Shown: positions 47,863-54,708 of the stretch, piece by piece
Position numbering within the stretch: position 1 is the first letter of the stretch
Layout of the letters: every line of letters begins with the position of its first letter
Virus record (IMG/VR): IMGVR_UViG_3300025929_000001
Coordinates: 31,418-95,417 of that record
Strand: one strand, 5' to 3'
Length of the DNA: 64,000 nt
Source: a virus
The notes under the pieces: model-generated
Databases searched by the model: none
The model's input: the letters and a program-made list of their open reading frames with translations, nothing else
What the model was told of the DNA's origin: nothing
Translations under genes and position numbers: made by a program

Positions 47863-48134
47863 ATTTTGCCAATAGGTTTCTTCTCTTTACGCTCGAAAAT
47901 CGATATTGGCATTTTCGGGAACTTTGCTTGCATGGACTTGACAGTTTCAACAAACGCTGCCAAGTTTTGAGATTGCATCCGTTGCATCTTACCGCCAATG
48001 TTCATAACTGCGACATAGGTTATAATCTCGGAGTGGTTGCCCACAATACGACCGAGTGCGCGATCTTCTTTCTCAATCGCTGCGGCAATTGCACGCTGTA
48101 GACCTTGTTGCTCGACTATGGTGGCACCGGACAT
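47859..48134 (-). CDS. Hypothetical protein
   Basis: AGGAGAAATATC-ATG. Confidence 0.6.
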   Translation of the reverse strand: MSGATIVEQQGLQRAIAAAIEKEDRALGRIVGNHSEIITYVAVMNIGGKMQRMQSQNLAAFVETVKSMQAKFPKMPISIFERKEKKPIGKI

Positions 48135-48294
48135 GATATTTCTCCTAAATGAACCTTCTGAACTCCATCTGCTAAACGTGCGTTTATAGCGTTTATTTTA
48201 GCACATAGGGGGTAGGGTGCAAGCGCTTAAATTTGCGTGCGGTAGGGTGTTTAAAACGGGTTAAAAGCGATAGTTTTACGGGGTTAAACCCCAA

Positions 48295-48361
48295 CCAGAC
48301 AGGGTCCGTAAAGACCCTGTTTCGTCTAATTAATAGATGTAATTAATAGACTCATCAGTGG
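48295..48361 (-). ncRNA. Type I hammerhead ribozyme HH-A (cleavage GUC| between 48298 and 48297)
   Basis: CCA-CUGAUGA-[GUCUAUUAAU uacaucu AUUAA u UAGAC]-GAAA-[CAGGGUC uuuacg GACCCUG]-UC|UGG. The core is intact but stem I is short. Confidence 0.85.
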
Positions 48362-49461
48362 GACTGTTGCTGCGAATCGATTTCGGACAGCGTGCTAAGC
48401 AAGACACCGATGTTGCCTCGGACTTTCTCGAACTTAAGGTTCGCAGCCTTCAATGCTTCTTCGTGCTTGTGCGGAATCATGTTGACCATTAACAAAACCC
48501 GATCCGCACTAGCTGCCATGCTTTTGAGCTTGTGGACCGATTCGTCAGTGTGGTAAAAGGTCAGCTTAAACTTATCGCCGAACTTATCCTTTACTTCTTC
48601 AATGTGTATGGACTTAAGTAGTCCTGCGACGACTATCTTTTGTTTGCTAACAGTCGGTTCCATGGCTACCCCGATCGGGTTGTGTCTGATTGGACTTCGA
48701 TTGTGCGTCTGTGGGCGTAACATGTCTTGTACCTCCGATGATTTGAGAATGTCTAGTACGTTAACCTTAAATCGGTCAGCGAGTTTGTCCAGCAATGCGT
48801 CCAGCAATTGACCTGCGGTAAAGTCTGCCGGTGTAGCAGCTAGCGCGAGCGCTACAGGTTCCGTTATAGCTGGTGCGGGCTCCGGTACGCTGGCAGCAAC
48901 AAGGTCCACCATGTCTGCAAGCCAGTGCGCGTTGACCTTAATGTTCCCGATTGGAATGCGCCGCCTGTCTTCTGCCAAACATGATGCCTGGGCTTGGTCG
49001 AGCGCCTGGCTTAAGCTTACGAACGGTTGCTTCCTGCGGATAACCGCAACCTCATGCGCAAGCGTGATGCGCTCGTCGTGTGACCACACAATCTTAGGCT
49101 TCCGTCCCTTGATACCTTCAGGAACTTCTCGAACGACCGGTGTAGTCAGTTCGACGCTAGGTGTAGGTTGAAGCGGCCCTACGAACTCGGGCACGTCCGG
49201 TTGCTTTAACCGATACTTGTAAGCCCGCTGACCACCTGACTTATCGACTTCTAATGTGTGGTTATTAACCAGCATCTGAATTCGATTAGCCACCATCTTC
49301 TTATCATACGTAGAGCAGACATCCATTATATCAGCAGACTTTGCCCAGAGGTTAGCGGTGTTATTGAACATGTCAATGATCAGTTTACCTACCTGCGAAC
49401 GGGCTTCCGTCTGCGACTCGCTTACTACCATGCGAGCGTGTTGTATCTCTATGTTGTTCAT
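48355..49461 (-). CDS. Multidomain hypothetical protein (N-terminal winged-helix-like, C-terminal DUF2325-like alpha/beta)
   Basis: 368 aa; AGGAG RBS; the stop codon is the UGA of the hammerhead core. Confidence 0.7.
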   Translation of the reverse strand: MNNIEIQHARMVVSESQTEARSQVGKLIIDMFNNTANLWAKSADIMDVCSTYDKKMVANRIQMLVNNHTLEVDKSGGQRAYKYRLKQPDVPEFVGPLQPTPSVELTTPVVREVPEGIKGRKPKIVWSHDERITLAHEVAVIRRKQPFVSLSQALDQAQASCLAEDRRRIPIGNIKVNAHWLADMVDLVAASVPEPAPAITEPVALALAATPADFTAGQLLDALLDKLADRFKVNVLDILKSSEVQDMLRPQTHNRSPIRHNPIGVAMEPTVSKQKIVVAGLLKSIHIEEVKDKFGDKFKLTFYHTDESVHKLKSMAASADRVLLMVNMIPHKHEEALKAANLKFEKVRGNIGVLLSTLSEIDSQQQSH

Positions 49462-49470
49462 TGCTGTCTC

Positions 49471-49746
49471 CTAGTTCAAACGGGTTATCTTGGCAAACTT
49501 ACCTTGTTCCATGCTCCAGAAGTTGCCGTTTATCATGGAGCCGGCGTCGTTCTTAGCGAACGCTGCGGGTGCTAACGCTTGCTGATCTTCCAGCCCTTCC
49601 AGAACCAACTGCACTTCGCTGACGAAGGTGTCAGTACGTTCGCATATCAGCTTGGGGACGTTGCGGTGTATCTGGTATATGCGAGCCGTTTTATATAACG
49701 AGTCACCCTTCTTGGTTTCGTAGTAGGTATAGACGAAGTGTTTCAT
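49471..49746 (-). CDS. Hypothetical protein
   Basis: AGGAG RBS. Confidence 0.65.
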   Translation of the reverse strand: MKHFVYTYYETKKGDSLYKTARIYQIHRNVPKLICERTDTFVSEVQLVLEGLEDQQALAPAAFAKNDAGSMINGNFWSMEQGKFAKITRLN

Positions 49747-49767
49747 TGATCATTGCTCCTAAAAAGT

Positions 49768-49796
49768 AAAAACCCCGGCAAACATCACCGGGGCTT
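49768..49796 (-). terminator. Intrinsic terminator
   Basis: GCCCCGGUGA-ugu-UUGCCGGGGU-UUUU on the - strand. Confidence 0.75.
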
Positions 49797-49814
49797 ATGG
49801 GACGCTGTTAAGCG

Positions 49815-50330
49815 TTAAGATTGCTGGCCTTGCTTGGCAAGCTCGTCGAACTTTTCCGCAATCACACCTTGCAGACCATCGTAGCAGCCGTCGACATACT
49901 CGGCGGTTTGGATGCCTTGGTCAGCTTGGCCGCCAGCGACGTCGATTTCGCGGAACAGGATTGCAGCCAGTGCAAGCTGGGCGATGCCGGCTTCCATTAT
50001 CTGGTTTGCAAAGAACATGCGTGCATCCTGTCCTTGCGCCGGTTGGGCCGCTTGTTGTGTCGCTTGGGTTTGCGCTGGCGCGGTTTGAGCTTGTTGCGCA
50101 ACGGCTGCGCCACCCTGCTCCCCGCCAAGGGTTTCAGCGAGGTCGCCGTTGCTTTGCTCATTCCCGTTCTGACCGCCGGTGTTCGTAACGTTACCGATGC
50201 GACCGTCGGTGGCCGGGTCAGTAACTCGACCACGACCATCGCTACCCTGATTGGTTTGCTTGGCCTGAGTGGGCTGTGCTGCGCCCTGGCGGGTTTGATT
50301 TGAACGACCGCGAGTGCCTGTTGTTGCCAT
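49815..50330 (-). CDS. Gln/Gly-rich low-complexity protein with a helical C-terminus
   Basis: AGGAGCAATATC-ATG at 50330; lies 37 nt downstream of the HH-B cleavage site. Confidence 0.7.
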   Translation of the reverse strand: MATTGTRGRSNQTRQGAAQPTQAKQTNQGSDGRGRVTDPATDGRIGNVTNTGGQNGNEQSNGDLAETLGGEQGGAAVAQQAQTAPAQTQATQQAAQPAQGQDARMFFANQIMEAGIAQLALAAILFREIDVAGGQADQGIQTAEYVDGCYDGLQGVIAEKFDELAKQGQQS

Positions 50331-50362
50331 GATATTGCTCCTATAAAGATGCGATGAAGTTA

Positions 50363-50438
50363 CCGCATACACAATAAGCCCGCGTGTAAGGCGAGCTATT
50401 GTGTTTCGTCCGAGAACCACTCGGACTCATCAGTGCGG
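50363..50438 (-). ncRNA. Type I hammerhead ribozyme HH-B (cleavage GUA| between 50368 and 50367)
   Basis: CCGCA-CUGAUGA-[GUCCGAG ugguu CUCGGAC]-GAAA-[CACAAUAGCUCGC cuuacac GCGGGCU u AUUGUG]-UA|UGCGG. Confidence 0.93.
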
Positions 50439-50439
50439 A

Positions 50440-51252
50440 TTACGCTGCGGGTGCAGGCTGTTCTGCTGCCGATTGTTCGGTAGCGGCTGCTGGCGCTTCT
50501 TGCCCTTCCGGGAGTTCGAAGTTACCAGCGGGGCCGAACCCGACCGTCCACACCGGCGCAGGCTGTTGAGCTTGCACTGGCGTTGGCAGAGCGACGCGAC
50601 CGCGAACACCGTGATATGCACGCCACCGAGCGTACTGCGTTTTGATGGTGTGGTCATTCATACCGCGGATACGGCTGTCTGCTTTGATCTCCGCAATGGT
50701 TGCCGGCGTCGTTCCCGGATGCGACTTGCTGATCTCGTCCGCAACATCCCAGACCGTACCGGTCAGCGTACCAGACGCGGGGCGGGTGATGTTGTTGCGG
50801 GTCAGCTTAGCTGGCCGCGGAGGTTGTGGGGCCTGGCCTTGCAGCAGTTGGGTGACTGCGTTCGGGTCGGAGATGCCCAGTTCCTTAGCGACGTTGGCGG
50901 CTGCTTCTTCCATTTTTTGCTTGAACTCGGCAGCGACCTGTTCCGGAGTGCGATGCAGCGGGTCGGCACCATCGGGTACCACTGGAGCGGCGAGATGCTG
51001 CGCGACGAAGGCGTGCGCTTGGTCCGGCTGGATTGCGCGGCGTTCTTCGCGTTCGCGCCGTTCCTGGGCGATAACTTCTGGCGGCAGGTCGGATGCGGCC
51101 TGGTCGTTGGTGTTCGTGGTGTCTTGGGCACCTTGCAGCTTGAGCTCGTCTGCGTGCTGCTTGTCTTCAGCAGACATAACCTTGGATGCGATGGGCTTAG
51201 CAGCGACGGATTTACGACCTTTTGGTGCGACGTGGGATTGAACGTTTGCCAT
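50440..51252 (-). CDS. Protein with the paralogous helical domain, flanked by two hammerheads
   Basis: NNITRP.SG..TG.VW.VAD...T.KTQYARW; AGGAGCAATATC-ATG. Confidence 0.8.
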   Translation of the reverse strand: MANVQSHVAPKGRKSVAAKPIASKVMSAEDKQHADELKLQGAQDTTNTNDQAASDLPPEVIAQERREREERRAIQPDQAHAFVAQHLAAPVVPDGADPLHRTPEQVAAEFKQKMEEAAANVAKELGISDPNAVTQLLQGQAPQPPRPAKLTRNNITRPASGTLTGTVWDVADEISKSHPGTTPATIAEIKADSRIRGMNDHTIKTQYARWRAYHGVRGRVALPTPVQAQQPAPVWTVGFGPAGNFELPEGQEAPAAATEQSAAEQPAPAA

Positions 51253-51378
51253 GATATTGCTCCTATGATGAACTGCGGTTGGTGCTGGAAGGTTCCAGCT
51301 GGCTTAACTATATAACAATTTTGCGGTAGCGGTTGGCGTTTAAACAAACTTTCGCTAGCTTGCTGATAGGCCACCTTT

Positions 51379-51443
51379 ACTGCTGACGTAGACCTTAAGT
51401 GTCTGGGTCTACGTTTCGGATCATTAATCCTCATCAGAGCAGT
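51379..51443 (-). ncRNA. Type I hammerhead ribozyme HH-C (cleavage GUC| between 51385 and 51384)
   Basis: ACUGCU-CUGAUGA-[GGAU uaaug AUCC]-GAAA-[CGUAGACC cagacacuuaa GGUCUACG]-UC|AGCAGU. Confidence 0.94.
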
Positions 51444-51444
51444 T

Positions 51445-51726
51445 CTATGAATGAAACTCGTACTCGGCTTTCGGGGCACGCTGAATGCATCCCATAGTCA
51501 GGCGGAAGTCTGTGTGATAGCGGATGTTAATGATCCACTCCAGCCACCCTGGATGCTTGTAAGCAGGCGCATCTGCGGGGACGCGCTCTTGCGGGTAGAT
51601 GTCTATAAGCTTCGCGCATTTGACGTGCTGCGCTACGCGAGCTAAGACAGCTTCCAGCATCTGCTGATCCAGTTCCCAACCGAGAACGTTGTGAATGTTA
51701 ATCTGGCAGGTTTTATCTTGACTCAT
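51445..51726 (-). CDS. Hypothetical protein
   Basis: AGGAG RBS; the TAG stop lies 1 nt before HH-C stem I. Confidence 0.65.
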   Translation of the reverse strand: MSQDKTCQINIHNVLGWELDQQMLEAVLARVAQHVKCAKLIDIYPQERVPADAPAYKHPGWLEWIINIRYHTDFRLTMGCIQRAPKAEYEFHS

Positions 51727-51803
51727 GGCATTGCTCCTAAGTTGGGTTGAACTAGCTGCTAAACGCACGCTTATATTAGCAGCGTTTAACAGCTTTGGGC
51801 GTT

Positions 51804-54522: not shown

Positions 54523-54708
54523 GATATTGCTCCTGAGGTGAAATGCATCTGTTGGATGCGGTTGGGTAAATGCGTATTGTACTGCTAAACGTGCGTTTAT
54601 GGTGCACATTTAAACGCGTTTTAAGCGCTTAAATGCATTTTTGCGGGGAGGGTATAGGGTACCCGCTAAAAACGCAGGCAACATGCGTTGCCCACGGTTT
54701 AAACGGTA

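What the first reader, a model, noticed from the sequence alone, without database searches (positions are those of the whole stretch)
48295..51443. Three intact hammerhead ribozymes at gene boundaries of the early transcript
Seen: three - strand elements (48295-48361, 50363-50438, 51379-51443). Each has the full catalytic core: CUGAUGA, a G-C closing pair of stem II, GAAA, the A-U/C-G start of stem III, and a GUC/GUA/GUC cleavage triplet. All are type I topology. Their stems share no sequence yet pair, so structure rather than recent duplication is being conserved. All are in sense orientation and begin at or within a few nt of the upstream gene's stop codon. Established: hammerheads self-cleave to leave 2',3'-cyclic phosphate and 5'-OH ends, and 5'-OH RNAs escape the 5'-monophosphate-dependent RNase E pathway. 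Hammerheads are known in some phages, mostly without a defined function. Inference: the phage uses ribozymes as protein-independent mRNA maturation sites that split a polycistron into separately stabilised messages.
Basis: partly seen in the sequence, partly recalled or inferred. Interest (0 to 1): 0.92.

Follow-up and report, generated by a model that had tools for sequence, protein, structure and literature searches.

The report
Three hammerhead ribozymes between phage genes
Three genuine self-cutting hammerhead RNAs sit between genes of an uncultured 95-kb tailed phage, each flush against the preceding gene's stop codon. Clusters like this have been known in phages since 2011, and their job is still untested.

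Summary
A descriptor search finds type I hammerheads only at 48295-48361, 50363-50438 and 51379-51443, all on the - strand. Shuffled windows give about 0.01 per window. Each folds on its own into the three-way junction. A covariance model built only from hammerheads of five related viral contigs ranks the three elements as the top hits in the window (E 2e-8, 2e-5, 1e-4). Thirteen aligned copies show strong compensatory change in all three stems. The predicted cut sites are correct.

No Rfam family reaches its gathering score, because the long stems II and III are penalised. Ten of 15 copies in this phage group start within 1 nt of an upstream ORF's stop codon, and two more hold the stop inside CUGAUGA. 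All are type I.

The reading as mRNA processing sites is plausible. It is the hypothesis already published for clustered phage hammerheads (Perreault 2011, PMC3088659). No RNA data could be obtained. "Early transcript" is not established, and a strong intrinsic terminator lies inside the supposed polycistron.

This scan has already noted stop-codon-abutting phage hammerheads on other DNA.

Verdict: real, conserved, and a new member of a known kind.

The parts
51379..51443 (-). HH3, a type I hammerhead. Stem I is 6 bp (ACUGCU/AGCAGU), stem II 5 bp, stem III 9 bp. The triplet is GUC and the cut is predicted at 51385/51384. It starts 1 nt after the TAG stop of the 93-aa gene.
   Evidence: (36.8 bits, E 2.4e-8)
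50363..50438 (-). HH2, a type I hammerhead. Stem I is 5 bp (CCGCA/UGCGG), stem II 7 bp, and stem III is long and bulged. The triplet is GUA and the cut is predicted at 50368/50367. It starts 1 nt after the TAA stop of the 270-aa gene. After cleavage, a 37-nt leader runs to the next ATG.
   Evidence: (27 bits, E 2e-5)
48295..48361 (-). HH1, a type I hammerhead and the weakest of the three. Stem I is only 3 contiguous bp (CCA/UGG), with a possible bulged extension. Stem II is long and AU-rich, and stem III is 9 bp. The triplet is GUC and the cut is predicted at 48298/48297. The TGA stop of the 368-aa gene is the first UGA of CUGAUGA.
   Evidence: (24.2 bits, E 1.4e-4)
51445..51726 (-). 93-aa gene upstream of HH3. 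It matches no family and has no homologue in the relatives.
50440..51252 (-). 270-aa gene between HH3 and HH2. It belongs to a conserved phage family of unknown function (motif NGITRP...TQYARWR). Hammerheads flank it or lie near it in all five related contigs.
49815..50330 (-). 171-aa Gln/Ala/Gly-rich gene downstream of HH2. It starts at the ATG behind the conserved AGGAGCAATATC ribosome site and has no homologue in the relatives.
49770..49796 (-). Intrinsic terminator-like hairpin (12 bp, followed by a T-run) between the 171-aa and 91-aa genes, inside the supposed polycistron.
48355..49746 (-). 91-aa and 368-aa genes (49471-49746 and 48355-49461) between the terminator and HH1. Neither is conserved in the relatives.
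48169..48269 (-). Repeated regulatory module downstream of HH1 (ATTTAAGCGCTT and the palindrome-containing TAAACGCACGTTTAGCAG). It also occurs after the terminator at 54696-54673, and its second motif alone at 51756-51773. It is a candidate promoter or operator of the next unit.

Best explanation
These are three functional type I hammerhead self-cleaving ribozymes, transcribed in sense with the - strand genes of a siphophage. The phage carries a 2178-aa tape-measure protein, its own DNA polymerase and primase, and 7-deazaguanine DNA-modification genes. All three ribozymes lie in one putative unit of about 3.5 kb (about 51770 to 48295), bracketed by copies of an operator-like motif.

Inferred mechanism: once stem I's 3' strand has been transcribed, each ribozyme cuts after H17. 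Because the topology is type I, the upstream message keeps nearly the whole ribozyme as its entire 3' UTR. That UTR begins directly at the stop codon and ends in the stem III hairpin with a 1-nt overhang carrying a 2',3'-cyclic phosphate. Such an end should resist 3' exonucleases and polyadenylation. The downstream message starts with a 5'-OH and only 3-6 nt of ribozyme sequence ahead of its own leader.

The result would be discrete messages whose expression is insulated from their neighbours. The 270-aa gene would be released as a 1017-nt RNA. The 171-aa gene would run from HH2 to the terminator. HH1 would make the 3' end of the last block, in the position where the preceding unit uses an intrinsic terminator.

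Shown: sequence, fold, conservation, covariation and placement. Inferred: cleavage in vivo, the effect on stability, and the promoter assignments.
For: The core and helices are complete and the chance expectation is about 0.01 per window. An independent covariance model built from relatives finds the three as the top hits. Related contigs G001-G005 carry 2-3 type I copies each, all in gene orientation. Of the helix cells, 91.7% are paired, against about 35% in slid controls, and 13 of 17 pairs show changes on both sides. The relatives share synteny (g82, g270, g91a, RadC, and primase at 56-60% identity), while the genes between the hammerheads differ. Ten of 15 copies abut an ORF end within 1 nt (binomial 7e-17 against uniform placement) and two have the stop in the core. 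In a wider sample, 33 of 47 distinct copies have a stop within 3 nt. Most copies have a 26-41 nt leader with a Shine-Dalgarno site after the cut. HH1 lies just upstream of the regulatory module that at 54.6 kb follows an intrinsic terminator. In the literature, triple phage-type hammerhead arrays cleave in vitro and in E. coli (PMC3088659).
Against: There is no RNA data for this phage. No Rfam model reaches threshold. Stem I is short (3-6 bp), and I found no clear stem I-loop II tertiary contact, so the rate at cellular Mg2+ is uncertain. HH1's stem I is weak, competes with another pairing register and a downstream GGGG/CCCC hairpin, and lies partly in coding sequence. A strong terminator inside the unit, and possible promoters after HH3 and HH1, mean that less read-through RNA may exist to be processed. 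The stabilising effect of 5'-OH and cyclic-phosphate ends rests on general knowledge of RNase E and 3' exonucleases in E. coli, not on this host, which is unknown.
Confidence: 0.6

Rival explanations
1. The ribozymes mainly sever genes rather than stabilise them. Cleavage would uncouple and lower expression of what lies downstream, or of read-through into the next unit, acting as a terminator substitute or attenuator. The long untranslated 5'-OH leaders after HH3 (132 nt) and HH1 (163 nt) would then be degraded or become Rho loading sites.
For: HH1 sits at the end of a unit, in the place a terminator holds at 54696-54673. A terminator and ribozymes are used side by side in the same unit. Twister ribozymes placed in 3' UTRs change reporter expression (review PMC6765202).
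Against: HH2 and most copies in the relatives are followed within 26-41 nt by a strong ribosome site and start codon. That layout looks designed for expression of the downstream gene.
Confidence: 0.2
2. The ribozymes are insulators that travel with exchangeable gene cassettes. They would persist because they make a newly acquired gene's expression independent of context. Their conserved sequence may also serve as a recombination patch between phages.
For: The genes between hammerheads are not conserved among otherwise syntenic relatives. The same stem I sequence (CCACA/UGUGG) recurs in 61 IMG/VR stretches from many contigs. Perreault 2011 notes that the flanked genes are not constant.
Against: The window's three copies do not share stem sequences with each other or with the CCACA type, so they give little homology for recombination. 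This reading explains the origin of the ribozymes and does not exclude the processing mechanism.
Confidence: 0.12
3. The 1017-nt RNA between the HH3 and HH2 cuts, which carries a 5'-OH and a 2',3'-cyclic phosphate, is ligated into a circular or otherwise rejoined RNA by a host RtcB-type ligase or by the ribozyme itself.
For: The end chemistry is what RtcB joins. Another first-stage note on this genome raised the idea (e1-5965439).
Against: The fragment's 5' end (AGCAGU) cannot pair with HH2's stem I 5' strand (CCGCA), so no hammerhead can reform across the junction. Perreault 2011 looked for spliced or circular products from such arrays and found none.
Confidence: 0.03
4. The elements are inactive relics or chance look-alikes.
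For: Rfam scores are below threshold, HH1 has a weak stem I, and there is no tertiary contact evidence.
Against: The chance rate is 0.01 per window against 3 observed. Every core position is intact in all three, and there is compensatory covariation across 13 copies in six genomes.
Confidence: 0.05

Closest known systems
Clustered hammerhead ribozymes flanking single genes or short gene blocks in prophages and phages (Perreault et al. 2011, PLoS Comput Biol, PMC3088659)
   Same: Several hammerheads lie within a few kb, in gene orientation, between small phage genes whose identity varies. The proposed role is processing of long phage transcripts. A triple array has been shown to cleave in vitro and in E. 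coli.
   Different: This case is a lytic-type, uncultured 95-kb siphophage with no integrase seen in the window. All copies in it and in five relatives are type I. Stems II and III are unusually long. The starts are locked to the upstream stop codon. The array is associated with one conserved gene family (the 270-aa protein).
Rfam Hammerhead_1 (RF00163) and RAGATH-1-hammerhead (RF03152)
   Same: Same catalytic core and type I topology. cmscan aligns the full core of HH1 and HH2 to RF03152 and of HH1 to RF00163.
   Different: Scores are 16.9-23.4 bits against gathering scores of 34 and 56.3. The upstream hairpin and linker of RAGATH-1 are absent, and HH3 is not reported at all.
RiboJ-type synthetic ribozyme insulators (my own knowledge: Lou et al. 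2012, Nat Biotechnol)
   Same: A hammerhead placed between genetic parts cuts the transcript so that the downstream gene gets a fixed, context-independent leader.
   Different: RiboJ is derived from a type III ribozyme and stays on the 5' end of the downstream message. Here the type I ribozyme stays on the 3' end of the upstream message, and only 3-6 nt go downstream.
HF1/HF2 halovirus hammerhead upstream of the early helicase gene (discussed in PMC3088659)
   Same: A viral hammerhead lies a few nucleotides upstream of an early-region start codon. A mapped 5' end near the cut site suggests activity in vivo.
   Different: It is a single variant ribozyme in an archaeal virus, not an array abutting stop codons.

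Membership tests
Hammerhead ribozyme (class) | Conserved core: C3 U4 G5 A6 N7 G8 A9, G12 A13 A14, the A15.1-U16.1 pair, and H17 not G | tested here: met
   All three read CUGAUGA ... GAAA ... U-H with H = C, A, C
Hammerhead ribozyme (class) | Three helices around the core, closed next to the core (10.1-11.1, 1.1-2.1, 15.1-16.1) and supported by covariation | tested here: met
   The minimum-free-energy folds give the junction. All three have G10.1-C11.1. 91.7% of cells are paired and 13 of 17 pairs have double changes, against about 35% paired in slid controls.
Hammerhead ribozyme (class) | Self-cleavage after H17, giving 2',3'-cyclic phosphate and 5'-OH ends | not testable with these tools
   This needs in vitro transcription or end-specific RNA sequencing.
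Hammerhead ribozyme (class) | Stem I-loop II tertiary contact or pseudoknot, as in fast natural hammerheads | tested here: inconclusive
   Stem I is only 3-6 bp. A recurrent loop II motif (U/C)AAUG occurs in HH3 and 4 copies in relatives (G005a, G002a, G003a, G004b). The systematic pseudoknot test failed to finish.
Rfam hammerhead models (operational cut-off, not a defining feature of the class) | Score at or above the gathering threshold of RF00163, RF00008, RF02275-7 or RF03152 | tested here: not met
   No match at gathering. The best scores are 23.4 and 21.2 bits for RF03152 (cut-off 56.3) and 16.9 for RF00163 (cut-off 34). The long stem II and III insertions are penalised.
RAGATH-1 hammerhead subfamily (RF03152) | Extra 5' hairpin and an A-rich linker before a type I hammerhead | tested here: not met
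   The alignment gives only a trivial 4-bp stem, with no loop for HH1, and low scores. I do not file the elements here.
Clustered phage hammerhead arrays (Perreault 2011) | Two or more hammerheads within a few kb, in the sense of the genes, flanking single genes or short blocks in a phage genome | tested here: met
   Three copies lie within 3.15 kb on the gene strand, flanking one gene and one four-gene block. Five relatives have the same arrangement.

The most novel reading that the evidence does not exclude
In this phage group the exclusive type I topology and the 0-1 nt abutment to stop codons are functional, in three linked ways. (1) The terminating ribosome covers stem I's 5' strand and the core, so cutting is gated by translation of the upstream gene. 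(2) The cut leaves a ribozyme hairpin with a cyclic phosphate as a complete, exonuclease-proof 3' UTR. The element would then be a protein-independent substitute for an intrinsic terminator that also launches the next message. (3) A conserved CCAC box a few nucleotides after the cut, seen in the wider CCACA-type family, is part of that launch.
Probability: 0.25. Interest if true: 0.6.

Novelty: new member of a known kind. Interest (0 to 1): 0.32.

Why it matters
The biological role of bacterial and phage hammerheads is still called 'largely elusive' (PMC6765202). This locus adds a clean, conserved example in which placement rules can be stated: type I only, start at the stop codon, and a short leader after the cut. 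One gene would be released with both ends made by ribozymes, which makes the processing-and-stability hypothesis easy to test on a 3.6-kb fragment. It does not change what is known. It offers a good test case and a small covariance model for finding more.

Tried and rejected
1. Rfam at gathering on the whole window gave nothing. At E <= 10 on the whole window no hammerhead passed the filters. Weak sub-threshold hits appeared only on the 3.4-kb stretch.
2. Megablast and blastn of the region against 50,697 phage records found no match.
3. A search of viral contigs with the 368-aa protein found no relatives. With the 270-aa protein as a single query there was one distant locus. The primase as a single query gave four distant loci without hammerheads.
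7. The structure of the 270-aa protein was modelled (mean pLDDT 68). Foldseek against the PDB gave no match at E <= 0.001, only weak winged-helix look-alikes for the conserved C-terminal domain.
8. PADLOC, Pfam and PHROGs gave no function for the flanked genes.
9. Achromobacter phage vB_Ade_ART (95.3 kb, similar replication and 7-deazaguanine modules) has no convincing hammerhead by model R1. Its only hit is 17.4 bits, inside the exonuclease gene.
10. A post-cleavage hairpin between stem I's 3' strand and the downstream leader is present in 7 of 15 copies (P about 0.01-0.04). The downstream CCAC box does not covary with stem I in copies that have other stem I sequences, so I do not claim the hairpin.
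11. The loop II pseudoknot script stopped on a variant copy and was not pursued.
12. Circularisation by the hammerheads themselves was rejected, because the two ends cannot form one stem I.
Full report
**What is there.**

Read on the - strand, the three stretches each run in this order:
- stem I 5' strand
- CUGAUGA
- a stem II hairpin closed by G-C
- GAAA
- a stem III hairpin that opens with A-U and C-G
- GUC, GUA or GUC
- stem I 3' strand

I wrote a type I descriptor with these rules and ran it over both strands of the window. It returns exactly 48295-48361 (HH1), 50363-50438 (HH2) and 51379-51443 (HH3) and nothing else. Stem lengths I/II/III are 3/5/9, 5/7/9 and 6/5/9 bp.

Several checks support the hits:
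- 300 dinucleotide-preserving shuffles of the window gave three minimal hits in total, about 0.01 per window.
- The window has 13 CTGATGA words, and only these three continue as a hammerhead.
- ViennaRNA folds each element on its own into the three-way junction. Two of the three folds are better than nearly all shuffles (z -2.1, -3.5, -2.6).
- The stems share no sequence.

**Rfam.**

No family reaches its gathering score on the window. With permissive thresholds on the whole window, nothing hammerhead-like passes the filters. On the 3.4-kb stretch alone, HH1 and HH2 align over the whole core to RAGATH-1-hammerhead (23.4 and 21.2 bits, cut-off 56.3). HH1 also aligns to Hammerhead_1 (16.9 bits, cut-off 34). 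HH3 is not listed. The alignments show why: long insertions in stems II and III are penalised, and the extra 5' hairpin of RAGATH-1 is absent.

**The genome.**

The window is bases 31418-95417 of a 95,417-bp IMG/VR virus record. Its 'direct terminal repeat' is a 127-bp overlap. The physical ends, and with them the label 'early', are therefore not established.

The phage is a siphovirus with these genes:
- a 2178-aa tape-measure protein
- a family A-type DNA polymerase
- a primase-helicase, 52% identical to that of Pseudomonas phage NP1
- a Cas4-like exonuclease
- a ligase
- a DpdA-type transglycosylase

There is no close cultured relative at the DNA level. All genes from about 21.5 kb to the window's end are on the - strand, so the ribozymes are in sense. 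The whole genome holds only these three.

**Relatives and covariation.**

The 270-aa protein between HH3 and HH2 belongs to a conserved family of unknown function (motif NGITRP...TQYARWR). An alignment of it fetched 25 viral and 42 metagenome loci.

My descriptor found clean type I hammerheads, on the gene strand, in four of the related viral contigs. I built covariance model R1 from eight of those copies only, with none from the window. Run over the window with filters off, R1 ranks the three elements first: 36.8, 27.0 and 24.2 bits, E 2.4e-8, 2e-5 and 1.4e-4. The next hit scores 16.5 bits.

Over all loci, R1 adds two more copies in a fifth contig. Over the five whole records it finds 2-3 copies each, always on one strand and within a few kb.

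On the 13-copy alignment:
- 91.7% of helix cells pair, against 31-39% when partners are slid by 1-3 columns.
- 13 of 17 pairs show changes on both sides.
- No shuffle reaches the covariation score.

The alignment was fitted to the model, which favours pairing. The slid controls share that bias and remain far lower.

The five contigs are true relatives. They share the order g82, 270-aa gene, 91-aa gene, RadC, primase (56-60% identity). The 93-, 171-, 91- and 368-aa genes beside the window's ribozymes have no counterpart there.

**Placement rules.**

Across the 15 copies in six genomes:
- Ten begin -1 to +1 nt from the end of an ORF of at least 45 codons. The binomial P is 7e-17 against uniform placement at the observed density of ORF ends.
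- Two have the stop as the UGA inside CUGAUGA (HH1 and one copy in a relative).
- After the cut, most have a Shine-Dalgarno site and a start codon within 26-41 nt. HH2 has 37 nt.
- HH3 and HH1 have longer leaders, 132 and 163 nt.

A stop inside the core is less special than it looks. CUGAUGA holds two in-frame UGAs, so any ORF that enters it in one of the three frames ends there.

For a wider and partly independent sample, I scanned IMG/VR with the exact pattern of the commonest stem I type (CCACA...UGUGG), which hit 61 stretches. Of 47 distinct copies, 33 have a stop codon ending 0-3 nt before the element, and 24 of those follow at least 40 open codons. This scan has recorded the same abutment on other phage DNA (e1-3431444). 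My counts agree with that note.

**Transcription context.**

A strong intrinsic terminator (12-bp stem followed by a T-run) lies at 49796-49770, between the 171-aa and 91-aa genes. The motif TAAACGCACGTTTAGCAG, which contains a palindrome, occurs three times on the - strand, at 54582, 51756 and 48169, where 0.07 copies are expected. Each copy lies 35-60 nt upstream of a start codon. At 54.6 kb and at 48.2 kb it is preceded by ATTTAAGCGCTT.

If these motifs mark promoters or operators, one unit runs from about 51770 to 48295 and holds all three ribozymes in this order:
- 93-aa gene
- HH3
- 270-aa gene
- HH2
- 171-aa gene
- terminator
- 91-aa and 368-aa genes
- HH1
- the next regulatory module

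HH1 stands just upstream of that module, in the position where the preceding unit has a terminator (54696-54673). The promoter assignment is an inference. The consensus scan found no more sigma-70-like sites than in shuffles.

**How it most likely works.**

With a type I topology, the cut leaves almost the whole ribozyme on the upstream RNA. That RNA ends at the base of stem III with one unpaired nucleotide bearing a 2',3'-cyclic phosphate. The downstream RNA starts with a 5'-OH and 3-6 nt of stem I.

From general knowledge of E. coli RNA decay:
- 3' exonucleases and poly(A) polymerase need an accessible 3'-OH tail.
- RNase E is stimulated by a 5' monophosphate.

Both products should therefore be relatively protected. 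Because the element starts at the stop codon, the ribozyme is the whole 3' UTR. I take this as the best explanation: discrete, insulated messages, with HH1 also serving as a 3'-end maker. I hold it at moderate confidence, because nothing here shows cleavage or stability in cells.

The severing or attenuating role, the cassette-insulator origin, circular RNA and inactive relics are treated as rivals. The last two are unlikely. The ends of the 1017-nt fragment cannot rebuild a hammerhead, and the 2011 study found no circular or spliced products. Relics would not show intact cores and compensatory changes.

**Weak points.**

- HH1 has only three contiguous stem I pairs. Its minimum-free-energy fold uses another register of stem I, and a GGGG/CCCC hairpin follows directly.
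- Stem I is short in all copies. I found no firm tertiary contact, so rates at cellular Mg2+ are unknown.
- A loop II motif (U/C)AAUG recurs in HH3 and 4 copies in relatives (G005a, G002a, G003a, G004b). I did not complete a test of it.

**Comparison with what is known.**

Perreault et al. 2011 (PMC3088659) state that multiple hammerheads often flank single genes or short blocks in prophage genomes. They note that the flanked genes vary. [quoted passage not shown] A 2019 review still calls the function of such ribozymes elusive (PMC6765202). A method for capturing both cleavage ends in bacteria exists (PMC8782182).

The finding is therefore a new member of a known kind. The interpretation repeats a published hypothesis. 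What is added here:
- a documented phage group in which all copies are type I
- the abutment to the stop codon
- the association with one conserved gene family
- a working covariance model where Rfam's models fail

No read-level evidence could be sought.

Noticed in passing
window 48169-48186, 51756-51773, 54582-54599 (- strand); also 48221-48232 and 54623-54634: The motif TAAACGCACGTTTAGCAG, which contains the palindrome TAAACG-CA-CGTTTA, occurs three times where 0.07 copies are expected. Each copy lies 35-60 nt upstream of a start codon. Two copies are preceded by ATTTAAGCGCTT. It is a candidate operator or promoter module of a phage regulator.
   Followed up: partly
window 48131-48147, 50327-50343, 51249-51265, 51723-51739, 56220, 57173, 62620, 63305 (+ strand coordinates): Eight or more genes share a nearly identical translation start region (- strand TAGGAG-CAATATC-ATG). 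This is a strongly conserved ribosome-site context across the small-gene block.
   Followed up: no
window 50440-51252 (- strand); alignment A1: The 270-aa protein belongs to a conserved phage family with invariant residues in N..TRP...AD...N.HT.KTQY.RWR...G..GR. Its C-terminal domain has tblastn matches in 149 phage records and is annotated 'transcriptional activator' in Alteromonas phage R7M. The AlphaFold model has no significant PDB match, only weak winged-helix look-alikes.
   Followed up: partly
IMG/VR loci L083-L143: Type I hammerheads with the same stem I (CCACA/UGUGG) occur in 61 viral stretches. In 23 of 47 distinct copies, a CCAC box lies 2-25 nt after the element, where about 4 are expected. 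The box does not covary with stem I in copies that have other stem I sequences, so its role is open. It might form a 5' hairpin after the cut or be a separate signal.
   Followed up: partly
window 49770-49796 (- strand): A strong intrinsic terminator lies between the 171-aa and 91-aa genes, only about 24 nt before the next start codon. Expression of the 91-aa and 368-aa genes would need read-through.
   Followed up: no
genome G000 1-127 and 95291-95417: The record's 'direct terminal repeat' is only 127 bp. It looks like an assembly overlap of a circular or permuted map rather than a physical terminal repeat.
   Followed up: partly
L081 (Achromobacter phage vB_Ade_ART, MH746817.1): This cultured 95.3-kb phage has the same block of exonuclease, helicase, QueE/C/D, FolE and DpdA genes as the window, and a paralogue-like match to the 270-aa family. 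It has no convincing hammerhead by model R1.
   Followed up: partly
window 50377-50397 (- strand), inside HH2 stem III: The apical GC-rich hairpin of HH2's stem III, followed by UAUUGUGUAU, is flagged as terminator-like by the consensus scan. The T-run is poor and this may be chance.
   Followed up: no
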